Origin: Eledone cirrhosa
Taxonomy: Eukaryota
NCBI GenBank assembly: GCA_964016885.1
Contig: OZ024740.1
Location: forward strand, 232,066,001 to 232,130,000
Direction of reading: 5' to 3'
DNA length: 64,000 nt
Position 1 is the stretch's first letter, and the number at the start of each line of letters is the position of its first letter. Position numbers and translations under genes: made by a program. The notes beneath the pieces were generated by a model. It was not told where the DNA came from. It saw only the letters and a list, made by a program, of their open reading frames with translations, and ran no database searches. Shown here one piece after another: positions 1,046-62,625 of this stretch.

Positions 1046-1252
1046 TACACACATACACACACGCACAGACACACCCACACCTATATATATATATTTTTTT
1101 TAAATTTTTTTTACGTATGTATGCATGTATGTTGTATATATATATACACAAATATCAAATGATTTCTGTGGAATTTATCTGAAGAGAACATGTTTTTGGC
1201 TTATGTTATACATCAGCCTTGCATCTTTGAAATACGTATAATAAAATAAATT

Positions 1253-15765: not shown

Positions 15766-16261
15766 GAAACACACAGATACATGCGGACACACACATATAC
15801 ATGAATGCATCCGCACCCAACTGTGAGTTAAGGGTGCCAACTTCACCGATGTTGCTCAATGAATGACTGGGACAGACCAATTCAGTTGAACTAGACTGAA
15901 CCAGTATCAGAGTTAAAAATACATAATGAAGAGAGAAGAAACATTTAGATATAATTAGTAATAAAATGTATCATACCTAAACTGCTTCTAAATTCCTCGA
16001 CTACGTAGTTTCGTGGCATAAACAAAAACAATATATCATAAAGATATAGAGTCCTTGCGAGGTCTGCCGACTTATCAAGAGGATACCTCATTTTACTAGT
16101 CTCAAGAACGCGTCTACAATATATATATATATGCAAAGTTTTATTTAAAATTGTTGGGTTACAACGAGTAAATATTTTATAACTGATATAAAGCACTCAA
16201 CAAGTTTTGGAGTAGATATACGATATTAAACAAATGGAAACTATATTTATAAAACCATATT

Positions 16262-16327
16262 TATTTCATTATACATATTTCAGGGATACCATATTAGAAA
16301 TATGGCATGCCTTCTTCAGATAAAATA
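16262..16327 (-). ncRNA. Type I hammerhead ribozyme motif
   Basis: Reverse complement of 16446-16511. Confidence 0.8.
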
Positions 16328-16445
16328 CAATATATAAGCAGTTTTATAAATAAATTTGACGTACCAAACCAACTTTTTTAAATGGAAGTTGAACAATATT
16401 TATGGTACGTCAAATTTATTTATTTATAAAACTGCTTATATATTG

Positions 16446-16511
16446 TATTTTATCTGAAGAAGGCATGCCATATTTCTAATATGGTATCCCTGAAATATGT
16501 ATAATGAAATA
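16446..16511 (+). ncRNA. Type I hammerhead ribozyme motif
   Basis: tattttat-CTGAAGA-aggcatgccatatt/aatatggtatccct-GAAAT-ATGT-ATA^atgaaata; 8-bp stem I. Confidence 0.8.
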
Positions 16512-16551
16512 AATATGGTTTTATAAATATAGTTTCCATTTGTTTAATATC

Positions 16552-16806
<255 letters not shown>

Positions 16807-20100: not shown

Positions 20101-20248
20101 ATATATATATATATATATTATGTAGGAGGTGAGTTTTATTGTAGTACCATAAAGCAATGCAGATATCGGATAAGAAGCACTCTACAGTTTGTAGGACTGG
20201 AGTATACATAATATATAAGATCAAAAGATGGTTAAAGGAGTTCCATGT

Positions 20249-20317
20249 ATTTTATTATGCGCATTTCAAAAACAAACATCATCATGCAATAATATTTGTG
20301 TTTTCATCAGATAAAAC
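20249..20317 (-). ncRNA. Type I hammerhead ribozyme motif
   Basis: Reverse complement of 20426-20494. Confidence 0.8.
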
Positions 20318-20425
20318 AGGAGAACATGATATGAAGGCTAAAAAACACTTGTGGATCAACATATCATGTTGATTTAAAACTGCACTATCCACAAGTGTTT
20401 TTTAGCCTTCATATCATGTTCTCCT

Positions 20426-20494
20426 GTTTTATCTGATGAAAACACAAATATTATTGCATGATGATGTTTGTTTTTGAAATGCGCATAATAAAAT
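20426..20494 (+). ncRNA. Type I hammerhead ribozyme motif
   Basis: gttttat-CTGATGA-aaacacaaatattatt/gatgatgtttgttttt-GAAAT-GCGC-ATA^ataaaat; palindromic stem III ATGCGCAT. Confidence 0.82.
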
Positions 20495-20523
20495 ACATGG
20501 AACTCCTTTAACCATCTTTTGAT

Positions 20524-20559
<36 letters not shown>

Positions 20560-23840: not shown

Positions 23841-24725
23841 TAAGGGCGGTAGATTGGCAGTATCGGTAGAGAGTCGGACACCATGCTTTGCAGCATAGAT
23901 CTACGGCCCTTTACGGTCTGTGTTCAAATCCGGCCGAGGTTAACTTTGCCTCTCATCCTTACAGGGTCGATAAAATAAAGTACCAGTCACGCACTGGGGT
24001 CGATTTAATCGACTTTCCCCTCTCCCAAAATTACTGGCCTTGTGCCTATACTAGAAATCATTATTATTAGGGCGGTGGTTGGCAGTATCGGTAGATCGTC
24101 GGACACCATGCTTTGCAGCATAGAGTTACCGACCTTTATAATCTGAGTTCAAATCCCACCGAGGTTAACTTTGCCTTTCATCCTTATGAGGTCGATAAAA
24201 TAAAGTACCAGTCACGCACTTGGGTCAATTTCATCGACTTTTCCCTCCTCCCCAAATTGCTGGCCTTGTGCCTAAATAAGAAACCATTATGATTAGGGTA
24301 TGGATTGGCAGTATCGGTAGAGTGTCGGACACCATGCTTCGCGGCATAGAGTTATGTCCCTTGAAGATTTAAGCTCAAATCCCGCCTTAGTTAGCTTTGC
24401 CTTCCATCATTACGAGGTCGATAGAATAAAGCACCAGTAATGCACTGGGGTCGATTTAATCGACTTTCCTTAGCCCTTCAAATTGCTGGCCTTGTGCCTA
24501 AAAGTAGAAACAATTGTCATTATTATTATTTTTATTATTATTTTAGTATCGGTAGAGGGTCGGACGCCATGCTTTCCAGCATAGATTTACGTCTCTTTTC
24601 GGTCTGAGTTCAAATCCCCCCAAGATTAACTTTGCCTTTCATCTTTACGGGGTCGATAAAATAAAGTACCAGTAATGCACTGATTTAATTGCTGGCCTTG
24701 TGCTAAAAGTAGCAACATTTATTAT
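23841..24725 (+). mobile_element. Head-to-tail array of four family A SINEs (~23841, 24070, 24295, 24545)
   Basis: Four consecutive consensus matches separated by (att)n tails. Confidence 0.92.
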
Positions 24726-31487: not shown

Positions 31488-34342
31488 CCTCGCTATATAA
31501 TCTCGTCTCTTATATATATATGTGTGTGTATGTGTGTGTTTATGTGTGTGTGTGTGTGCGTCATTGCATGTCTCTCTGTCTCTCTATATACAGACGTGTG
31601 AGCAATAACATAGCAATGAATATATGAATATATATTGTGAATGTTCAATATATCTCTTAACCGTTTGAGATATTTTTGCAGGGCCTTTGGTTTCGTAAAC
31701 GAAAACAAATACGTTTAACTCGCCAAATATGTGAGGAAATCAGTGACGGAGATGAAAAATATAGCTGGAAAGTGGAAATCAATAAAAGACTCCATAGAGA
31801 CTTGATTACGTCGTGAAGTTGAAAGATCTTGATAGTTGTTCAGCGTTGGAAGATGTATTGCCCAGCGGTGAGCTAATTGTTCGAAGACGTGTCGACGATG
31901 GCGGTTTGACGACTGCAGTAAGTAGCCTCCGTATATTCTGATGCATTACTTTACTTGTTCATGAACTGATTATTAGATGCGGTGGAGGTAATGAGGGTAT
32001 ATGAACATAGGCTATGGAGAGCTAAGATAGTTTTGATGGAATATTAGGAAGGTGTTTCTGTGATGATATAAAAAAAATGATATTACGATCATTCTCTTGC
32101 TCACAGAAACAGAGATAAAAGTAGCGAGCTCTCAAAAATGTGTTTTGTAATATTGCCGAAATCATTTCCTTCGTCCCGAAGCCTCCGCATGAAAACTGAC
32201 AGATAGCTGGATGTTTGCCTGTCACTGCACGTGAAGGAATGCATATTCTAAGTAAATCTTCTCTCAAAGTCATTTGCTGTTATATCAGATGTTTTAGCGA
32301 GAGTGACTCTACAGATAACAGCCTTTAATATACAGAATGTCCCAAATAAACAGTTAGTGTTCTTTCGGAATATGTAAGCTGGTGCTTAGAGTGGTGCCTT
32401 AATATGTAATAAGAATTCTCTCCAATGTCTCAATGTCTTCATTAAAATTGTTAAATCTAGAATCATCATCTGACGAGATGGAGTGGTAAGGGCTTACACT
32501 CTGCAGCTGGTTGACATGTAGTATCATTAAATGCAACCCTATGTTTTCCATCCTATGTTCTAAATTCGGAATTTTCTTTTGATACTAAAATATATTTTAT
32601 TGGATCCTTGTCAGTCACGCAAAGATCTGTATGTCCTATTAGCGTGCTTTTGTGTGTGTGTGAAGGGAATGTGTAGCCACACACAGAAAATAGATCTTCT
32701 TCACAGTTGTCATCCTTTTTGTACTTCTTCGTTACATTCTATTTTCTTTATATTTACCACCCCTCACATACAACGCAAACGTCTTACAAAAGTGTTTACA
32801 AAAATGTTTCAAGATGTATCCAAACGTGAGATAAAATGATCATATAATAAATAAAGATAGGATATTTTTTTTTACGGAAAACATTCAAAAACATAAATCT
32901 GTACAAATAAGGACAACTCATGCATACAAATGTGAGAGGCTGGCACCTAGTTAGAATCAAAATACCAAACGACTACGAGTATCTTCGCTTGATTGCTTCA
33001 GTAAACTTGGTTCTCCACAATTATATTTGAGCAATTTCGACATTCGCTAAAGTCCCTCAGATCCTTGTTGTTGGACCAGTAGTTTAGTCTTTGTCAACAA
33101 TATATTATCATGGGACTTGTCCCTTAATTCATGTTCGAATTATACATTGTTTGGCCTCGCTGTTTTTATCCACCTACGTATTTTCATCGTATATTTCCGC
33201 TCTTCACTTTCTCCATCTCTGCTGTTCCCAGAGACGTGACCGATGGTTATCTAGAGTCAGTCGCTCATAGCATAGTTTTCATATAATGGCTTTGTTTCAT
33301 GACACAGGATTCCTTATAATCTGACTCGGTGGATGGAGCACATCTATTGTCACTTATAGATCTTTCTCTCACGTTATATGGAAGGTAATGCGTTCTTCTA
33401 TTTCATTCTTCTCTTTTTTAAAACAGAGGTAGGTAACGTTTCTTTTCCCTTTTTGCTACATCAATGTATCGGACAATGAACTGTTTTTCCTGATATACCT
33501 CACCAAATATTTCATTTCCTTTAACTAGATCAATTTGAATTGCTTCTTTTATCCTACATCTCAAGCAGATTTTGGTATGCGCACTGTGTTTTCTCTTCAA
33601 ATAAATATTTCCAACACTTTTCCTATTTGAAATTTATTTTTCCATAAACAACTTGAGCACGTGTTTATTTTCATAGGTGTTATCCCCAGTATAGAGAACA
33701 CTTCTTATTGTCGCTTCTGCAGTGACCGGTGTACGAGGTGAGTAAATATAGCAAATAACTCTTTGTCAAAAATGTGTATAAATTTTAAAACTTTCTAAAG
33801 ACAGACGTTTCCACTATCCAAGGTAATAGGATATACATTGGTATATGCAAAGTCCTTTAATGGTAAAAAATATTCTTTTTCGTCTAGTATTCTTGGAAGA
33901 AAATATTTTCTACACGAAGCTCTGCAAAACGGGATTGTTCCTAGCGAACAACAATAACAACAACAACAACATCATATAAATAATAAAACAACATAAACAA
34001 CTATGATGTAAAACAAATAAAAATGACAACAGTAATAACAACGACAACACTATTACAAAACAAACTCTACTAAAGACAACAAAAATGACGACATCATAAA
34101 CAATGTACAATTGCGAGTATAGTAAGATTAGAAAAGCAGACATGGTTACAATAACATCAACATGAAGAATACAAAGAAATGAAGATGGATAGGTTGCCAT
34201 GGGAATACTCTATTTCCTCTCCTGTTTCTTCCTTCTCCACCTCCATCATTACTATCATCTTTACCATCATTTTCATCATTACTATCATCATTACCTTCAT
34301 CATCAGTAATATTACTATCATCATCATTACCTTCTTCATTAT

Positions 34343-34727
34343 GGGTAGAGGGTCGGGCGCCATGCTTTGACGCATAGAGTTACGGCCCTTGGCATTCTGA
34401 GTTCAAATCCCACTGAGCTTAACTTTGTCTTTCATCCTTACGGGTCGATAAAATAAAGTACCAGTAATGCACTGGGTAATTGCTGGCCTTGTGCCAAAAG
34501 TAGAAGCAATTATCATTATGATTAACATCGACAAAGGGCGGTGGATTAGCAGTATCGGTAGAGGGTCGGACGCCATGCTTTGTAGCATAGAGTTACGCCT
34601 CTTTACGGTCTCAGTTCAAATCCCGCCTAGGTTAACTTTGCCTTTCATCCATACGGGGTCGATAAAATAAAGTACCAGTAATGCACTGGATAATTGCCAG
34701 CCTTGTGCCAAAAGTAGAAACAATTAT
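34343..34727 (+). mobile_element. Two tandem family A SINEs; second has TSD attatgattaa(c/a)atcgac
   Basis: Consensus matches at 34343-34512 and 34533-34727. Confidence 0.9.
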
Positions 34728-34859
34728 GATTAAAATCGACGTCTTCGTTGTCATAGTCACCGTCATCATCATCATCGTCACCATTGACTTCCTTTTTATC
34801 AACATGTTCATCACAAATTTTATCACCACTATCATCATCACAAACATAAATAATATCAC

Positions 34860-44665: not shown

Positions 44666-45046
44666 TTTATCTCTTTCTCTTAATTTCGAGTATATTTTTG
44701 ACCGGCCACCATTCTGGTGGCAAGGTTGTAAAAGAAAAGAAATTGTCCTCCCTTGAATCGCAAGAATGTTTTGCAAATTTTGAAGGTGCCAGCTATCGCA
44801 GCCATTTGTAAACTATGAATTAGGGAGCTGTGCTCTTTGTCCGCAAATCCAAGTTCAGTTATACATTGGTCCAAGCGGGTTGGTATATAACCCGTAGCTC
44901 CAATAATGATGGGTATGAAGCTAAAGGTGTATCTTGGATACTGGATTTGTAAACTCCTCATCAATGGTCCGTAGATGTCCTCCTTCTCCTGTATTTTTCT
45001 GACAACGTTTACATCAAATGGGCAGATGATCTCCACAACAGAACAC
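44666..45046 (-). mobile_element. 3' end of an RLE-type (R4/NeSL-like) non-LTR element inside (TACA)n
   Basis: Open frame [38 protein letters not shown]; (ATGT)n on both sides. Confidence 0.8.
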
Positions 45047-45204
45047 GTATGTATGTATGTATGTATGTATGTATGTATGTATGTATGTATGTATGTATGT
45101 ATGTATGTATGTATGTATGGCGGAAGAACTCATAAGAGTAAACGGCTATCCAAAAGTGTGTAAATATGTATATACACATCTACATATGTATGTAGATGTG
45201 TATA

Positions 45205-46101: not shown

Positions 46102-46222
46102 TCGAGTTCGAATCCCGCCGAGGTTAACTTTGCCTTTCATCCTTACGGGGTCGATAAAATAAAGTACCAGTAATGCACTGGAATAATTGCTGGCCTTGTG
46201 CCAAAAGTAGAAACAATTATTT
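46102..46222 (+). mobile_element. SINE family A, truncated, with TSD attatttctccttctatt
   Basis: Direct repeat on both flanks. Confidence 0.9.
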
Positions 46223-46439
46223 CTCCTTCTATTTGTTGTCGTCACTGTTGTTGTTATTGTTGTTTCTATTATTATTTATATATTATTTAAATTGTTCAAC
46301 AAAACCTCAGTACTGATCCAGCTGACGTATTGTGAAAAGGATTCCAGCTTTGATAACACCTTCCTTTCCCGTCAAGCCTTTTGTATCTACATTTACAGTA
46401 TACAATGTGTTCTTTTGATTGTATTTTAATGTTGTATGG

Positions 46440-47957: not shown

Positions 47958-48119
47958 TAATTTGGTTATTAATTTTAGCAAATCGAGTCTCAACGTAAGG
48001 CTTTCTTATTGGCACAGTCGTTTTGCCAACGAATGTATGGTGTGAAAGAATAAAAATAACACATTTGCAATAATAAATATGAGCTGGAATTTCTCAACTT
48101 CAAACCATTTGAAGATGTT

Positions 48120-48720
48120 TCATTTTGTTAAGCAGCAAGGACGGATATATTTTTCTACCTGACATCAATATGTTGTCAGGAATACAAACGAGAATTTCTT
48201 GGAACATTACATTCTAATGAAGCTGATGAATTCAAATGCTTCTTCTGGAATGACACTCACCTACGCCGTCGCAGTCCGCATGATGTTCTCTCAGCTCTTA
48301 AAGAAATCAGGAAAAGCCACCTATGAAGAGTATGAAGTCTGTCGAATGAGCTAAATGCATCTCTTTGCCGCAAAACCTTGAATCTGTCGTGACGAATGAG
48401 CCGGGGCTTTGACATGAAGCAGTTGCCAGATTTGCGGAGCTAACGGATCTTAATCCTTCACCAAATTGCATCATGAAGACATCGGAGAATTTCCTTATAG
48501 AACTTCTTTGTAAGTGTTTGTGAGCGTTTTCGTGATAGACAACGCTTCGGTAGTCGTAGCTGAATTAAACAGCCAGTATATTCTGATTTTATTTCGCACC
48601 TGGCATGCTGTGTGGGTCTTGGTGAGATTGGATGCTTCCAATATGATGATTCAACGTTGGTTTCCCTGTCGTAGCCATACACGTACGTTTCAACCTCAGA
48701 ATCACTGTTGGTAATATCGG
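48120..48720 (-). pseudogene. Decayed mariner transposase fragment
   Basis: VYGYDRETNVESSYWKHPISPRP...QTLTKKFYKEILRCLHDAI matches mariner WVYGYDPETK.QSS.WK....PRPKK / QTVN..YY..VL.RLR.A. Confidence 0.8.
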
Positions 48721-48954
48721 GTTAAATTAAAATGTAACGATTAAATAGTACAGCCCTTCATACACTGGGTGGCGTACAGGGCCAGATATATACAGATAAT
48801 TCACCAAATGCCCAAGTACGTTGATTAATATATGTGGGTCCCTTCTGCACACATTTCTCTCCCCATATATTATATATATATAATAACTAACAAATTTGTT
48901 ATTTGAATATGGCAAAGCCGGCCACTAATCGCTCGTATACATAAAACTGACTGG

Positions 48955-49054
48955 CCAATCTGCTGATATGCAAATCTGGCTGATCAGTAGATCTGCTAAT
49001 ATGCAGATCTGACTGATCACCCATTGTGCTAATATGCAAATCAGGCCGATCAGT
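48955..49054 (+). repeat. Three 33-bp tandem units containing octamer-like ATGCA(A/G)AT
   Basis: ATGCAAAT at 48968 and 49034, ATGCAGAT at 49001; unit tgct.atatgca.atc.g.c.gatca. Confidence 0.8.
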
Positions 49055-49100
49055 CTCTGTATATTTTAGAAAATATCATATATTTTCAGTAGCTCTGACA

Positions 49101-49183
49101 GTTGGAAGGTGAACAGTAAACTGCACTGATGAAGGGCAATCACCCAGAAACATTAGTGTCTGCAGTTCTGTTTACATGCCAAC
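49101..49183 (+). ncRNA. Type I hammerhead ribozyme with extended stem I
   Basis: gttgg-aag-gtgaacag-ta-aactgca-CTGATGA-agggcaatcaccca-GAAACA-ttag-TGTC^tgcagtt-ctgtttac-atg-ccaac. Confidence 0.85.
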
Positions 49184-49291
49184 ACAAGCCCAATAATGAG
49201 GGACTCATTCTATTGACATGGTTTAAAAGAGGCTTGTTTGCATAATTGCAAACGAATCGATTATTATTGATATTCGAAAAGCTCAGATTAC

Positions 49292-49355
<64 letters not shown>

Positions 49356-49356
49356 G

Positions 49357-49404
<48 letters not shown>

Positions 49405-49923
49405 TGTTTGTGTGTATGTGTGTGCGTGTGTGTGTGCGTGCGTGTGTGTATGTGTGTGTGCGCGCGCGTGTGTGGGTGCGTGTGTGTGCGTGTGTGTGTG
49501 TGTGTTTGTGTGTGTGTGTATGTGTGTGTATGTGTGTGTCTGTATGTGTGTGTGTGTGTCTTTGTGTGTGTGTGTGTGTGTCTGTGTACATATATAAAAT
49601 TTAACTTAACTTACTCAACCTTGAACATTGTTGAATACAGAAAGATCTAAATTGGAAGAGGAATCCAAACAGTTGCGGTACATTTTCGGCATTTTGGGGA
49701 TGAACTTGAAAAGTGTGGTGCATCGTGTTCTCTCTAGATAAAAGAAGTGAGTCAATGAAGGATCATGAGTTATCCCCATTGATGTAATAGGAGACATGTA
49801 GCAAATTGAAACTGGAGTCGTATGCTGGCTGTTCGCTTGCTCTTAATTTCTTTGTCATTTTGCCATGCCAATTTAATTTATATATACAAGTCTATACATA
49901 GCAAACTAAAATTAACTCCATTA

Positions 49924-50259: not shown

Positions 50260-50763
50260 AGCGTGTGCGTGTGTGTGTGGGTGTGAGAGAGTGTGTGTGT
50301 GTGAGTGTGTGTGAGTGTGTATTGTGTGTGTGTGTCTGTGTGTGAGTGTGTGTGAGTGTGTGTGTGTGAGTGCGTGTGTGTGTGTAGTAACAAAGAAATC
50401 CCAAAGGAATGAAATAGAAATAGACTGCAAAAAAGAGTTCGCAGTCTAAAGAAAGGATTATATGATATAAAGGATAGCAACTGTTACTACTGACCTGAAT
50501 ATAAAACAGTTGGGATGTGAATATAACTAACAACAGTCTCAGACATGACAACCGAGAAAGAAATATAAGATTCCTGTGACCAGAATAAAGTACATACTGT
50601 ATATATATATATATATATATATATTAAAGTGTTAAACAATATTCAATGAGTATGTCAAAGAATGAGTTTTACAGTAGATTGGAAGCACTCTACGGTAAAA
50701 TAATTTTCCGGAGTTATTAATAATAAAATATAAATATTAATAAATTAGATGTTCTTTTGATCA

Positions 50764-50826
50764 ATTACATTTTATTATACATATTTCGGATGTACAACAG
50801 AACGTCCTCATCAGACAAAATATAAT
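50764..50826 (-). ncRNA. Type I hammerhead ribozyme motif
   Basis: Mirror of 50937-50999 with one stem II difference. Confidence 0.78.
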
Positions 50827-50936
50827 GATACATGACATACCCTGAGATGTTAAATGGTTAAGATTTAATATGGTTAAGATTAAATCTACCTTGATTAAAT
50901 CTTAACCATTTAACATCTCAGGGTATGTCATGTATC

Positions 50937-50999
50937 ATTATATTTTGTCTGATGAGGACGTACTGTTGTACATCCGAAATATGTATAATAAAATGTAAT
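50937..50999 (+). ncRNA. Type I hammerhead ribozyme motif
   Basis: attatattttgt-CTGATGA-ggacgtac/gtacatcc-GAAAT-ATGT-ATA^ataaaatgtaat; 12-bp stem I including GU pairs. Confidence 0.82.
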
Positions 51000-51108
51000 T
51001 GAACAAAAGAACATCTATTTTATTAATATTTATATTTTAATATTATATATATATATACATACTTATATATATATATACATACATATATATATATATACAT
51101 ACTTATAC

Positions 51109-52268: not shown

Positions 52269-52464
52269 AAGGGCGGTGGATTGGCAATACCGGTAGAGGG
52301 TCTGACGCCATGCTTTGCAGCCAAGAGTTACGGCCCTTTATGGTCTGAGTTCAAATCCCACCGAGGTTAACTTTGCCTTTCATCGTTATGGTGTGGATAA
52401 AATAAAGTACCAGTAATACACTGGTTTAATTGCTGGCCTTGTGCCAAAAGGAGAAACAATTATT
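52269..52464 (+). mobile_element. SINE family A with TSD attattcctataacaa
   Basis: Full length; direct repeat on both flanks. Confidence 0.92.
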
Positions 52465-52716
52465 CCTATAACAAACTCTATTAGATTCAGTACTTTCTTA
52501 TGTTTGTATATTTTGCGAGATACACACACACGCACGCACACATACATACACAGGTGTGTGTTTGTATTACCATATGTGAATACATATATACATTTATATA
52601 AAATACATATACAAAATTAAGTGCAATGCAAATTATACAATATTGCGTCTCTCCACGAAGTATTATTTTCTTACCATTTTCGGGAGAGTCGCTCATTGTT
52701 AGATTTTCCAATAAAA

Positions 52717-57180: not shown

Positions 57181-60038
57181 TTCTTTATTAGCCACAAGGG
57201 CGCAACAAGTAAAGGGGACAATACAAAGACATGCCGGGGATTTTACATACAGTCGTGTAAAAAATATAAAAACAAACAATTACAACAATCGAAATCCCCA
57301 ATAGGGGGGAGGCGCCACAAATGGGTTGTTTAATACCCCGTCGATAGAACAACCCTCAACTCCAGGAGCGTGTTGTGCAAGTACTCCTTTCTTCCTTTTG
57401 CTCTCTTCCTCAACCTACAGGCTTATAAACAGAAAAGGCCCAATCACTCGGGCCATTTTCGTTTCATTCACCCACCTTTCAGTAAATTTACTGGGGTGCA
57501 GTGCCTCTCTCTCCACCCTGATTCTCCTTCTAAAGTGATACTTAAAGAAGGGAATCAATTGTTGTCCGGAGAGAAAGGCATCGGTCCTCAGTCCTCTCAA
57601 CCTCGTCCACCATGTAACTTCTTTCACCATAGCCACCGTACAGAGGAAAACCGCCTCTCTTTCGTTTTTGAAAGAGGCTGGCGGTTTGATCCTTACTATG
57701 GACTCGGCAGTCAACTGGATTTGTCCCATACGCGACAGCAGTTGTTCTGCATAGTTCCACAGGTCGCTTACGCCAGGGCAGTGTACAATTGCGTGCAGAA
57801 CTGTTTCAATGTCCTGCGCACATCTTGGACACGTCCTCTTGGAAGGATCCCTGCCAGGGCGTCCGTGCCTGTAGATCTTGTCACGAACCGGTAGAGCTCC
57901 TCGGTAGCACTGCCAGGCCAGGGACCTCTGGAAGTTGTCCATAGGTCCCGGGCGGAAAGTCCTACGAAACAGACTGGTGAGCTCATCGTCTTCGACGCCC
58001 AGAGTCTCTCCGAGAACGTCGTCGCCCTTGTAACGTACAATCCCTCTATAGAATGTCGAGTCTCCATTGATTGCTGCGCCCGCTTGCCAGAGGACTGTGA
58101 GCGCCTGAGCGCATTCAATGTGCCAAGCGCCCATCGTTTTCGGTCTTTTCTTCACCCAGGACTGCAGCTCCGTTAGCGAGACGAGCTGTGGGAAAGCCTG
58201 TCTCACAAACGGTGCCCACACCGGTTGGGGGTCGGTGAGGAATACCTGGAGATGCCGCAGCCTCAGCGCATGTTTGCGCATCATCAGCCACGGCATTCCC
58301 AGCCCTCCGTTCGAAGGGTGCTGACAGCAGACGGATCTCCTCACCAGCGGAGCCTGCTTCTTCCACAGAAACTGGAAGAGCATGCGTTCCATCTTGGCGG
58401 AGTGTTCACGGGGACAAGGCACGACAGTCAAGCGGTAGTAGATGACGGACGCTATGAAAGTGTTCGCCACCTCCGCTCGACCTTTCAAGGACAGTTTGCA
58501 CTCTGCCCACTTCTGAGTGAGTGCAAACACCTTGGCCGTGACCTCGTTCCAGTTTTTCTCCACCTGGAGGTCTGGACCGAACCAGACCCCGAGCAATTTC
58601 ACCGGTCCGTCCGTCCAGCATCCAACGACGCTGTCGGATGTCATGGGTTTGCCTCTCCACGTACTGAGTTGCAAACCGACAGACTTGTCTGGGTTTAGTT
58701 TTGCTCCCGTCAGCGTTTCGTTTTCTTTCAGTAAGTTGTCGATCACCCCGATTTCCGAGGTGCTCGACACCATTACCGTTACGTCGTCGGCATAAGCCGA
58801 CGCCGCTTTGCTCAGTCCCGGTTCTAGGGTTATGCCCTGCAACAGCTCCAATTTCCGCAGTAGTGGCTCTAGAGTCAATACATACAGAATGGAGGAGAGA
58901 GGGCATCCCTGTCGAATGGAACGCGTGATTGCGAACGGCTCCGATAGGTAGCTGTTCACCTTGACCCTCGAGCAGATGCTGGTGTCCATCACCTCGATCC
59001 ATCCTCTGAACACGGGACCGAAACCGGCCGCCTTGAGAACCGCTTCCAAGTATCAATGGTCGACCCTATCGAATGCCTTAGACTGATCCAAGTTGATCAG
59101 AGCTCCACCGAAGCCGGGTTTACTACCCACCCTCTCTATGATGTATCGCATGAGGTGGAGGTTGTCGTGTAAGGACCTGGTCGGGATTGCACACGTTTGC
59201 GCTTTCCCTACCAGGTTCTTGACGACAAGCGCCAACCTCGTTGCTAGCACCTTGGCCAAAATCTTTAACTCTGTGTTGAGCAGAGTTATGGGCCTGAAGT
59301 TGTTAATTTCGTCCCCCTTGTTCTCGTCTTTCCTGATCAGCGATACTACGCCCTTGTCTGCAGAACTGGGAATTCTCCCGTTCTGCTGCCAATTGCAGTA
59401 GACGGCTTCGAGGACGCCAGAGAACAAGTCCGGCATGCCTATGTAAAATTCGTAGGGTAGACCATCTAGACCGGGTGACTTGCGTTTCCCGCAGCGGCCC
59501 AGAGCGTCCCGTATCTCAGTGTCCGTGATCGGTCTTTCGCAGAACTCGGCGTCCGTGTTCGAGAGACGCGGCAGGCCGTCGAGGTATGAACTAAAGTCCA
59601 TTGCCCCGTTCGACTCACCGTCGTTCTGCTCAAACAGTCGCGGAAAGTGCCGCTGAAAGGCCGCGCACATTTGCTTGGGGTCAAGTAACACGCGTCCGTT
59701 TTGACTTGTTGTCACTTTTTGCCTCCGCCACTCGGGCCCAGCTGACAGCTTTCGCTCCTTCATTTCCTAGAGCACGTGTTTTGCTTCTGACCACGCAGCC
59801 TTCGTGTTTCGCATCGAAGAACTGGTCCAGTGCCGTTCTCGACCCTAACACTCTAGCCGCGTTGCCACTTCTAAGTGCCTCCCCTACCTTGGCTACTAGT
59901 TCTCTTTCTATTCTGTTTTTCTCTAAGGCTAACTCTCTGCTATACCCTATCGATTCTATTCTAATTGCTTTCTTGAGAGAGTACCACCATCTATTGTTGA
60001 CGATGGCTCCCGTTAACTGTTGCTTGACTAGTCTACTT

Positions 60039-60040
<2 letters not shown>
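57181..60040 (-). mobile_element. 5'-truncated Tx1/L1-clade LINE inserted in (GATA)n
   Basis: RT motifs KSPGLDG, FRPITLLN, LDQSKAFDRVDH, RQGCPLS, YADD; C-terminal CPRC..ET..HA..HC; 3' UTR with AATAAA. Confidence 0.95.
57415..60030 (-). pseudogene. Tx1-like ORF2 (RT and zinc knuckle); in-frame TGA at the DH*YL position (~59053) and a frameshift near 59750
   Basis: The 544-aa and 236-aa ORFs are contiguous in frame across a single stop. Confidence 0.92.
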
Positions 60041-60096
<56 letters not shown>

Positions 60097-60124
60097 TGCT
60101 AGCTAGCTATAGATTGATAGATAT

Positions 60125-62330
60125 GTTCCTTTATTTGCTAGAAGGGCATACAAGAAATGAGACATTACAAGACGTGACGGCGGGGGTTTTACATAAAAAT
60201 TGTGTAAACTTTAACATTAATAAATTAAAATAAACTCTATATTAAAATAAAATAACAATCAAAATCCTCAATAGTGAAGAACGTTAATGCGGGATTGTTT
60301 TACACCACATGTACCCTTCTTCCTTCTATTGTCTTCCTCAACCTACAGGTTTATTTACACTCGGGCTATTTTCGCACATTTACCCACCTTTCAGCGAATT
60401 TACTGGGGTGCAGCCCCTCATTATCAACTCTTACCTTCCTTCTGAAGTGATATTTAAAGAAGGGGATAAGTTGTTGTCCGGAGAGGAAGGTGTTTATCCT
60501 CAGTCCTTTCAACCTCGTCAACCATTAACTCTTTTGCCATAGCCACCAGGCAGAGGAAAATCGCTTCTCCTTCATTCTTAAACGAAGGCGGCGGGGTGAT
60601 ACTCACGATGGACTCGGTTGACAACTGGGTGTGTCCCACACGTAACAGCAGCTGTTCGACATAATTTCACAGGTCGGTCACCCCTGGGCATTGAACAATT
60701 GCGTGCAGAACGGTCGCAATGTTCTGCTCGCATCTTGAACAGGTCCTTTTGGCAGCACTGCCAGGCCAGAGATATCTGGAAGTTATCCATAGGCACTGGA
60801 CGGAAAGTCCTCCCGAACAGACTGGCCAATTCGTCCTCTTCGATGCCCAGAGTCTCCCCAGGAAAGTTGTCACACTTATCCTCCACTAATCCCCATATAG
60901 AATGTTGACGTGGTGTCTCTGCTGATTGCAGTTTCCGCTTGGTAGAGGGCTGTGAGTGCCTGATGTTCCAAGTACCCATTTGGGGTCTTCGTTTGACCCA
61001 GGACTGCAGCTCCGTTAGCGAGACGAGTTGTGGCAAAGCTCTTCTCACAAACGACAACCACACCAGTTCACCGGTCAGGACAACCTGGAGATGGCGGAAC
61101 CTCAGCGCGTGTTTGAGCATCATCAGCCACGGCATGCCCAGCCCTCCGTTAGAAGAGTGTTGGCAGCAGATGGATCTCCTCACTAACTCACCAATGGAGC
61201 CAGTTTCTTCGAAAGGAACTTGAATAGTAGACGTTACATTTTGGGGAGTTGATCACGGAGACATTGCACGACCGTCAAGCGCTAGTAGATGATGGGCGCT
61301 ATGTAAGTGTTCACCACCTCCGCTCGACATTTTAAGGAGAGTTTGCACTCAGCCCACTTCTGAGTGAGCGCAAATGCTTTCACCATGATCTCGTGCCAGT
61401 GTTTGCCAAACATGGAGGTCTGGACTAAACCAGACCCCCGATCCTTCCACCTAGCGTTCAATAACGCTGTCGGATGGCATGGATTTGCCTCTCCATGTGC
61501 CGAATTGCAAACTGACAGACTTGTTCGTGTTGCTCTTATCAACGTTTCGTATTCCTGTAATAAGTTGCCGATCACCCTAATTTCCGAGGGTTTCGACACC
61601 GTTATGGTCACGTCCTCAGCATAGACAAACGCTTCTTTTCGCAGTCCTGGTTCCATCAGAATGCCTTGCAACTGGTCCATCTTCCGCAGTAGTGGCTCGA
61701 GAGTCAGTACATACAGAATGGAGGAGATAGGGCATACTTGATGGATGGAACGCAGATGTTGTTGTGCATGGCAACGATCCAGCTTCTGAAGACGGGAGCA
61801 AAACCGGCCGCCTTGAGAACCATTTCCAAGTATTGATGGTCGACCCCATCAAATGCCTTAGATTGATCTAAATTGATCAAAGCCCCACCGAAGACAGGTT
61901 TACATCCTACCCTCTCTACGATGTATCGCATGAGGTGGAGGTTTTCGTGTATGGAACTGGTTGGGATTGCACACGTTTGCGCTTTCCCCACCAAGTTCTC
62001 AACGACGAGGGCCAGCCTCGTTGCTAACACCTTGGCCAAATTCTTCAACTCTGTGTTGAGCAGAATTAAGGGCCTGCAATTTCTTATGTTATCTCCTTTG
62101 TTCTCATCTGCTTACAGAACTGGGAATTCACCCGTTCTGCTGCCAGTCCCACTAGACCCGTTCGAGGACGTCAAAGAACAGATCTGGCATGTAAAACTCA
62201 TAGGGTTAGACCATCCAAACCGGATGATTTGCGTTTCCTACAGTGGCCTAGGGCGTCTTCTATTTCGCCCATTGTGATCGGCCTTTTGGATCTCTCCGCA
62301 GCCACGTTCGAGAGTCGCGAGCGGCCGTAA
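60125..62330 (-). mobile_element. Second, more decayed Tx1/L1-clade copy in tandem
   Basis: LAKVLATRLALVV..GKAQTCAIP..LDQSKAFDGVDH; GGLGMPWLM; multiple frameshifts and deletions. Confidence 0.92.
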
Positions 62331-62625
62331 ATCCTAACGGCAAGCTTAAATATTTTAAAAACGGTTCTATCTTGGACGAAGGGTTTACATATTATTAAAT
62401 GATATGTACACTCTACATCCTTTAGAGAACGAAGTACTAAGTTGAATAATGGTGTTACTAGTCTATAATTAGTAACATCTTCATCTATCTATCTATCTAT
62501 CTGTCTACTTCTCTCGCACTTTCATTTCTCTCTTTATATATATGTATATATATACATTTATATACATATATATATATATACATAACACTCACACGCACAC
62601 ACGCGCGCGCACGCACACACACACA

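What the first reader, a model, noticed from the sequence alone, without database searches (positions are those of the whole stretch)
48950..49190. Extended hammerhead downstream of an octamer-containing 33-bp triple repeat
Seen: the best-formed HHR in the window, with a GUC^ site at 49160, core CTGATGA at 49126 and a 3-bp stem III. Stem I has 7+8+5 bp with a TA bulge and an internal loop that could dock on loop II (caatca). The first stem II pair is an A-A mismatch. About 60-130 bp upstream are three 33-bp units with ATGCAAAT/ATGCAGAT and a CCAAT. Established: extended type I HHRs with loop-bulge contacts are the efficient kind found in animal retrozymes, and newt satellite 2 HHR transcripts use snRNA-type promoter elements that include an octamer. 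Inference: this may be a self-promoting ribozyme cassette in a cephalopod.
Basis: partly seen in the sequence, partly recalled or inferred. Interest (0 to 1): 0.75.

Follow-up and report, generated by a model that had tools for sequence, protein, structure and literature searches.

The report
Worn retrozyme copy with octamer repeats
This is one worn copy of a very common, protein-free repeat that pairs a hammerhead (self-cutting RNA) motif with short repeats carrying an octamer transcription-factor site; it likely belongs to a known kind of animal jumping element (retrozyme), and neither cutting nor promoter activity has been tested.

Summary
The described features are all present. Laying public runs shows that about 48903-49295 is a solo copy of a very high-copy repeat in three labelled organisms. 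Family-wide, the hammerhead core, the A·A at the base of stem II and the three octamers show no common variant, and octamers and ribozyme lie on the same contigs. The number of 33-bp units varies. Stem III is self-complementary, and the monomer is predicted to trap its own core (5.6 kcal/mol below the active fold), so dimer cleavage is likelier than efficient solo cleavage. No PSE was found with human motifs; no RNA data could be examined. Verdict: likely a non-LTR retrozyme (Penelope-dependent), a new member of a known kind. An internal snRNA-type promoter is plausible (about even odds) and has a precedent in newt satellite 2. The scan noted retrozymes with promoter-like blocks before on other DNA of this genome.

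The parts
48903..49295 (+). One copy of a high-copy non-coding repeat (about 390 bp here, 39% G+C); true unit ends not established
   Evidence: Summed contig word depth 5e4-2e5 over 48914-49265 against 5.4 for the single-copy contig of the flank in run X1; pieces begin at 48898-48908; loose-end consensus matches the window to 49295; G+C
48885..48904 (.). Short imperfect palindrome at the left junction, after a (TA)-rich tract; possible fold-back scar, weak
   Evidence: Self-BLAST 20 nt, 90%, E 0.11
48946..49054 (+). Three dyad-symmetric 33-bp units plus a partial fourth; unit number varies among copies; folds as one long hairpin
   Evidence: fold z -7.45; 33-nt skips and loose ends
48955..48959 (+). 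CCAAT, private to this copy
   Evidence: A48958 read as G in 8209 of 8992 (X7), 70% (X4), 91% (X2)
48968..48975 (+). Octamer 1 (perfect)
   Evidence: no variant row at >=25%
49001..49008 (+). Octamer 2 (7 of 8); closes the central hairpin
   Evidence: no variant row at >=25%
49034..49041 (+). Octamer 3 (perfect)
   Evidence: no variant row at >=25%
49077..49088 (+). A/T-rich, TATA-like block ending in a T4 run; role unknown
   Evidence: No variant row at >=25%; T runs at 49064 and 49083
49101..49183 (+). Type I hammerhead motif with extended stem I; predicted cleavage after 49160
   Evidence: no variant row over 49126-49136 and 49143-49173
49150..49159 (+). Self-complementary stem III strand (10 pairs between two copies); its 49151-49157 part can instead pair with 49125-49131
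   Evidence: Duplex -8.8 kcal/mol; core pairing probability about 1 in the monomer
49236..49253 (.). 7-bp hairpin holding a reverse 7-of-8 octamer
   Evidence: Read from the sequence; conservation not established (61 rows hidden)
49295..49587 (.). (TA)n then (TG)n microsatellite at the right junction

Best explanation
The stretch is a solo, diverged copy of a very high-copy, roughly 390-bp non-coding repeat in which a variable number of octamer-bearing 33-bp units lies upstream of a type I hammerhead motif; it is likely a non-LTR retrozyme whose tandem copies would be transcribed from an internal promoter, are predicted to self-cleave mainly as dimers, and would be re-inserted by Penelope-like enzymes. 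Shown: motif, repeat family, octamer-ribozyme linkage, family-wide A·A, private lesions of this copy. Inferred: in a tandem array the octamer block of unit n drives (probably Pol II, snRNA-type) transcription through the hammerheads of units n and n+1; the self-complementary stem III strands pair between the two, both cleave after position 49160, and the released unit carries the octamer block near its 3' end, so the promoter travels with the RNA; the unit is ligated to a circle and reverse-transcribed into a microsatellite. Step odds: selected ribozyme at family level 0.9; retrozyme rather than pLTR of a coding element 0.75; octamers act in transcription 0.5; this copy cleaves efficiently on its own 0.15. 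With one hammerhead it cannot release a unit by itself.
For: High copy in runs of three organisms. Of 28 variant rows (27 positions, >=25%, list complete) over 256 nt, none falls in the 42 core/stem II/stem III/proximal stem I positions (P about 0.006, block chosen after the fact). Of six stem changes in the ribozyme, three keep a G-U pair (49120, 49124, 49174) and two add a pair that this copy lacks (49106, 49137). Two more changes in the central repeat hairpin keep G-U pairs (48989, 48991). 7 of the 16 listed long pieces span all three octamers and the cleavage site. Head-to-tail joints at two loci (49220 to 48912, 127 reads from one start; 49188 to 48945 with 29 letters between, one X2 contig). 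Circular fold z -7.3, 66% paired, G+C 39%, like the self-paired, low-G+C 350-390-bp mussel retrozymes (PMC7229834). Self-complementary stem III is the dimer signature (PMC4209133; PMC3088659). Promoter-plus-hammerhead units are known in newt and Schistosoma.
Against: The common head-to-tail junction of a full unit is not among the 15 of 141 joints shown, and this copy is solo, so tandem arrangement is only weakly shown. Family sequence beyond the window copy's ends could not be read, so a coding Penelope body is not excluded. No two-sided compensatory change was seen, and T49122G in half of organism B depth breaks a stem I pair. The A·A replaces the most conserved stem II pair. Even for two copies the best predicted fold (-66.0) keeps the cores trapped, against -63.8 for the double hammerhead. 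Octamer conservation is not significant (P 0.053), the best PSE-like match is weak and uses a private base, and the repeats may be kept for RNA structure. In Xenopus 8 of 9 tested retrozyme dimers did not cleave.
Confidence: 0.7

Rival explanations
1. The stretch is the pseudo-LTR of a 5'-truncated autonomous Penelope-like element; octamer block and hammerhead are the pLTR's promoter and processing site.
For: pLTRs carry hammerheads and promoters; microsatellite flanks and a short fold-back at the left end; some contigs run on 44-1194 nt beyond the left end with unread sequence.
Against: Architecture is the canonical type (long stem I, short stem II), not the minimal PLE type with long helix II and short helix I, which other window motifs show. 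No Penelope ORF adjoins this copy. The two classes are related by descent, so the line is soft.
Confidence: 0.2
2. Same element, but the 33-bp units are not a promoter: they are dyad-symmetric slippage repeats kept for RNA base pairing, and transcription comes from read-through.
For: Repeat block folds at z -7.45; the middle octamer deviates exactly where the hairpin needs it; changes keep G-U pairs; CCAAT is private; no PSE; spacing far below the 200-250 bp DSE-PSE distance.
Against: Octamers 1 and 3 keep the perfect octamer at the cost of a hairpin pair, in both organisms; compact octamer-PSE-TATA promoters exist (H1); newt precedent.
Confidence: 0.4
3. One reading: this locus is itself an efficient, self-promoting ribozyme cassette acting as a monomer.
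For: Core intact, long stem I, octamers intact; the left junction is also in a contig of run X1 with 2 differences in 975 nt.
Against: Eleven positions differ from the X2 majority, two of them removing ribozyme pairs; active fold 5.6 kcal/mol above the trapped fold; loop II not conserved.
Confidence: 0.07
4. Chance fold in a dead satellite.
For: No Rfam hammerhead match.
Against: 0 descriptor hits in 60 shuffled windows; core invariant across the family.
Confidence: 0.02

Closest known systems
Metazoan non-LTR retrozymes (coral, mussel, axolotl; PMC7229834; vertebrate survey 10.64898/2026.07.22.740005)
   Same: Canonical type I hammerhead in a short, low-G+C, non-coding, self-paired, high-copy unit; size like the 350-390-bp mussel units; solo monomers are common; axolotl HHR_Amex2 also has a mismatch (U·U) at the base of stem II and works better as a dimer.
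   Different: A·A rather than U·U; variable-number octamer repeats inside the unit; tandem arrays, cleavage and circles not shown here.
Newt satellite 2 (Coats, Zhang and Epstein 1994; only title and a citing sentence seen; paper not held)
   Same: Hammerhead repeat with an snRNA-type promoter; dimeric cleavage.
   Different: Here the octamer is multiplied in 33-bp units 60-133 nt before stem I, and no PSE or start site is shown. That the newt promoter holds an octamer is recalled, not seen in a call.
Penelope-like element pLTRs with minimal hammerheads (PMC4209133; promoter in PMC2377424)
   Same: Type I hammerhead, palindromic stem III, an A after A9, promoter in the terminal repeat, microsatellite neighbourhood.
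   Different: Long stem I and short stem II here; a second A before G12; no ORF next to this copy.
Schistosoma Sm-alpha SINE-like hammerhead repeats (as reviewed in PMC6765202)
   Same: Promoter followed by a hammerhead; single copies lose the ability to propagate.
   Different: Pol III internal promoter there; octamer-type block here, with T4 runs (49064, 49083) that would hinder Pol III read-through (inference).

Membership tests
Non-LTR retrozyme | Canonical type I hammerhead motif | tested here: met
Non-LTR retrozyme | Short unit (about 170-400 nt in PMC7229834), G+C under 45% | tested here: inconclusive
   About 390 nt and 39% in this copy, but true unit ends could not be read
Non-LTR retrozyme | No protein-coding frame | tested here: met
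   Only microsatellite-derived frames of >=90 aa overlap the copy; holds for this copy only
Non-LTR retrozyme | High copy number | tested here: met
   Depth 4 orders above the flank in X1; also X4, X5, X7; summed depth is no exact count
Non-LTR retrozyme | Head-to-tail tandem units with two or more hammerheads | tested here: inconclusive
   Solo in the window; two same-strand joints, one locus each; no genome held
Non-LTR retrozyme | Highly self-paired RNA | tested here: met
   Circular fold z -7.3 against 60 shuffles, 66% paired; much of it comes from the repeat hairpin
Non-LTR retrozyme | Self-cleavage and circular RNA in vivo | not testable with these tools
   Bench work and RNA data needed
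PLE pseudo-LTR | Adjoins an RT + GIY-YIG frame | tested here: inconclusive
   None next to this copy; only four pieces of the window were scanned against Pfam; family flanks unread
PLE pseudo-LTR | Minimal hammerhead: helix II 7-8 bp, helix I 4-5 bp | tested here: not met
   Helix II 3-4 bp, helix I 20 pairs against PMC4209133
Efficient extended hammerhead | 13-nt catalytic core and NUH site | tested here: met
   invariant at >=25%
Efficient extended hammerhead | Base pair at 10.1-11.1 | tested here: not met
   A·A in this copy and no variant row in three runs; same closure in 3 of 94 metagenome matches with full hammerhead anatomy, activity unknown
Efficient extended hammerhead | Conserved loop II / stem I bulge contact | tested here: inconclusive
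   2-nt bulge 7 pairs from the core is kept, but its second base and loop II vary (rows 49118, 49137, 49138, deletion 49141)
Efficient extended hammerhead | Active fold favoured in the monomer | tested here: not met
   -25.8 against -31.4 kcal/mol; the model ignores tertiary contacts
snRNA-type promoter (newt satellite 2-like) | Octamer (DSE) conserved and linked to the ribozyme | tested here: met
   No variant row in 24 octamer positions (P 0.053), linked on 7 of 16 listed pieces
snRNA-type promoter (newt satellite 2-like) | PSE | tested here: inconclusive
   Human H1 motif: no better than 100 of 100 shuffles; human U6 motif: best site 49083, reached by 2 of 100 shuffles, uses private G49089. 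Host snRNA promoters unavailable
snRNA-type promoter (newt satellite 2-like) | DSE 200-250 bp upstream of PSE | tested here: not met
   Octamers lie 60-133 nt before stem I, if transcription starts just before it; fits only a compact H1-like layout
snRNA-type promoter (newt satellite 2-like) | Drives transcription | not testable with these tools
   Needs reporter or 5'-end data

The most novel reading that the evidence does not exclude
A retrozyme family that carries its own tunable enhancer (one to three or more octamer units, doubling as an RNA hairpin) and a ribozyme with a built-in off state: in a single unit the catalytic core pairs with the palindromic stem III strand, protecting monomeric circles from re-cutting, while pairing between tandem units favours the active fold; the family-wide A·A at 10.1-11.1 would be a working natural variant. 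This would supply the self-pairing block that PMC7229834 said animal retrozyme circles seem to lack. Only 8 of 216 (3.7%) self-complementary stem III octamers with the C-G base pair trap the core as strongly (21.7% of all 1296).
Probability: 0.15. Interest if true: 0.65.

Novelty: new member of a known kind. Interest (0 to 1): 0.33.

Why it matters
How animal retrozymes are transcribed and how their circles avoid re-cutting are open points in the papers read. A family with natural 1-, 2- and 3-octamer variants and a predicted trapped monomer fold makes both directly testable. The class, dimeric cleavage and an snRNA-type promoter in a hammerhead repeat are already known, and this copy is worn, so the surprise is modest. 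No cephalopod retrozyme turned up in searches; the giant squid paper lists 235 Rfam hammerhead hits, and the Octopus vulgaris repeat paper has no hammerhead, ribozyme or retrozyme in its main text. Supplements that I could not or did not read (the 2026 preprint's) may list cephalopod families.

Tried and rejected
Rfam: nothing. Family-specific pattern in metagenomes: 0 matches; the broader pattern gave 114 loci, none with a >=35-nt BLAST match to the element and no octamer within 300 nt upstream in the 17 loci examined. Read starts at 49175/49178 and ends at 48906 and 49247 in X7 fall on CATG and AATT sites and were read as restriction cuts of the RAD library, not transcript ends (inference). 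The ddRAD design also hides any full-unit junction. A PSE downstream of the ribozyme (about 49213-49231) was considered but is not among the top four sites for either motif. Helitron-type ends were considered by eye and dropped (no CTRR end, no conserved terminal inverted repeat). Bacterial promoter scan is uninformative. No paper on A·A at 10.1-11.1 was found (0 papers); none of 12 listed papers mentions retrozymes. Sequence look-ups in the scan's notes found no look-alike of this copy, so I cannot say whether it belongs to one of the 420-478-bp families noted there. One search (self-comparison) gave nothing.

Full report
Observation. The 96-nt stretch folds at z -3.26. A type I descriptor that allows a mismatch at the base of stem II finds 8 motifs in the window and none in any of 60 shuffled windows. 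Rfam finds no hammerhead here, at gathering score or at E<=10, probably because of the A·A and the long stem I (inference). The triple 33-bp repeat is confirmed.

It is a repeat copy. No genome is held, so I laid public runs. In run X1 one contig covers 47990-48964 with 2 differences at depth 5.4, while summed depth over 48914-49265 is 5e4-2e5; runs labelled as two other organisms (X4, X5) and raw reads of X7 show the same block. Summed depth is no copy number, but four orders of magnitude mean thousands of copies or more (inference). The block begins near 48903 and family sequence matches the window to 49295, where (TA)n(TG)n begins; a TA-rich tract and a weak 20-nt palindrome lie at the left end. 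What lies beyond these ends in other copies could not be read. Only this copy is in the window. X1 may be related to the window's own source, so it is not independent support for the locus.

What the family keeps. One search lists all differences at 25% or more over 48945-49200 in X7, X4 and X2: 28 rows at 27 positions. None falls in 49126-49136 or 49143-49173 (P about 0.006 for 42 positions, block chosen after the fact). So the core, the three G-C pairs, the A·A and stem III are the family state. C49137 is T in 93-99% (a fourth stem II pair; loop II is then 4 nt, or 3 nt in the subfamily that dominates X7), and A49106 is C in 86-98% (the distal 3x3 loop becomes a 1x1 mismatch). Changes at 49120, 49124 and 49174 keep G-U pairs. 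Against: T49122G in 51% of X4 depth breaks a pair, and no two-sided compensation appears. The CCAAT is private (G at 48958 in 70-91%). None of the 10 rows in the repeat block hits the 24 octamer positions (P 0.053). 7 of 16 listed long pieces (of about 5400) span all three octamers and the cleavage site. Copies with one or two units exist (loose ends at 49027, 1027 reads; 48992, 615; 49019, 532; a 33-nt skip, 716 reads from 3 starts); RAD reads do not count loci. Two same-strand head-to-tail joints, one locus each, hint at tandem copies; the full-unit junction is not among the joints shown.

The ribozyme. The stem III strand 49150-49159 pairs with itself over 10 bp between two molecules (-8.8 kcal/mol), the known sign of dimeric cleavage (PMC4209133, parts 1-2 of 4 read; PMC3088659, passages; PMC6155905, passages). 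In the monomer 49125-49131 pairs with 49151-49157 at probability near 1; the active fold is 5.6 kcal/mol higher. For two copies the double hammerhead (-63.8) beats two trapped monomers (-62.8) but not a strand-swapped trapped dimer (-66.0). The seven other window motifs show mean core pairing of 0.10-0.67 against 0.85 here; 3.7% of 216 C-G-closed self-complementary stem III sequences, and 21.7% of all 1296, trap as strongly. The model ignores tertiary contacts, so this is a lead. The family changes lie in helices shared by both folds, so the trap should persist (inference, not computed). The A·A replaces the most conserved stem II pair; U·U is the tolerated mismatch on record (axolotl, 22% cleavage in an hour as monomer). 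A metagenome pattern that demands A on both sides gave 12 of 94 distinct matches with hammerhead anatomy against 2.1 (max 7) in 300 flank shuffles, 3 of them with a strict A·A over 3 pairs (L059, L103, L113). The arrangement recurs in nature; its activity is unknown.

The promoter question. For: octamers kept and linked in two organisms; a conserved A/T-rich block at 49077-49088; newt satellite 2 uses an snRNA-type Pol II promoter (citing sentence in PMC2220036; PMC6765202, passages; the original is not held); Penelope pLTRs hold promoters (PMC2377424, passages); H1 packs octamer, PSE and TATA into 100 bp (PMC7949045, passages). Against: classical spacing is 200-250 bp (PMC3544641, passages); human PSE motifs (PMC1790723, passages) give no convincing site; the units are dyad-symmetric and fold at z -7.45, so RNA structure alone could keep them. 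T4 runs upstream of the ribozyme would hinder Pol III from copying a whole unit, which favours Pol II (inference). I put the promoter role at even odds.

Comparison. The anatomy fits metazoan non-LTR retrozymes (PMC7229834, passages and parts 3-4 of 6; supplement unreadable), which a 2026 preprint derives from Penelope pLTRs and in which solo monomers are common and 8 of 9 tested Xenopus dimers did not cleave (10.64898/2026.07.22.740005, parts 1-3 of 5; supplements not seen). Penelope-like elements are recently active in Octopus vulgaris (PMC13282606, part 1 of 3; supplement listed, not read). Insertion beside microsatellites and inverted ends are PLE traits (10.1101/2021.04.23.441226, passages). 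Tandem arrangement, cleavage and circles, which define the class, are inconclusive or untestable here, so membership is likely, not proven. Unchecked scan notes on this genome report retrozyme arrays and promoter-like blocks; one gave me the lead to look at the A/T block and T runs. They are not independent support, and no sequence look-alike of this copy was returned.

Verdict. Real feature, new member of a known kind, interest 0.33. The boldest reading left open (tunable octamer enhancer plus a self-trapping ribozyme) has probability about 0.15 and would deserve 0.65.

Noticed in passing
window 16213-16560, 20203-20541, 50718-51045: Three fold-back elements, each with two hammerhead motifs on opposite strands (cores 16319/16454, 20310/20433, 50814/50949), with longer helix II. 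They match the opposite-strand dual minimal hammerheads described for truncated Penelope-like elements. Their sequence is unrelated to the focal family.
   Followed up: partly
window 1179-1240 (+): An eighth, solo hammerhead-like motif with the same kind of short palindromic stem III.
   Followed up: no
window 48050-48770 (-): Broken reading frames that look like a mariner transposase (resemblance recalled). Pfam and PDB searches of two stop-free pieces found nothing; low-copy depth in the runs.
   Followed up: partly
window 57415-62490 (-): Two broken LINE copies; the 545-aa frame hits RVT_1 (E 7e-10) and zf-RVT; L1/Tx1-like by recall.
   Followed up: partly
window 23852-24682, 34340-34732, 46104-46224, 52281-52467 and others: An abundant dispersed repeat of about 213-226 bp, sometimes in tandem; SINE-like by eye; ARAGORN finds no tRNA gene in the window.
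   Followed up: no
L002, L010, L027, L054, L056, L089, L110, L112: Hammerhead-like motifs in metagenome contigs with a 6-nt palindromic stem III and an A before GAAA; L110 has a second core 292 nt upstream, suggesting a tandem retrozyme of another animal.
   Followed up: partly
L059, L103, L113: Type I hammerhead-like motifs with long stem III, GUC site and a strict A·A closing stem II, apparently microbial or phage; a possible untested natural variant that descriptors demanding a 10.1-11.1 pair would reject.
   Followed up: partly
window 44680-45129 (-): Frame resembling the C-terminal endonuclease end of an R4/Dong-type LINE (recalled); no significant Pfam hit.
   Followed up: partly
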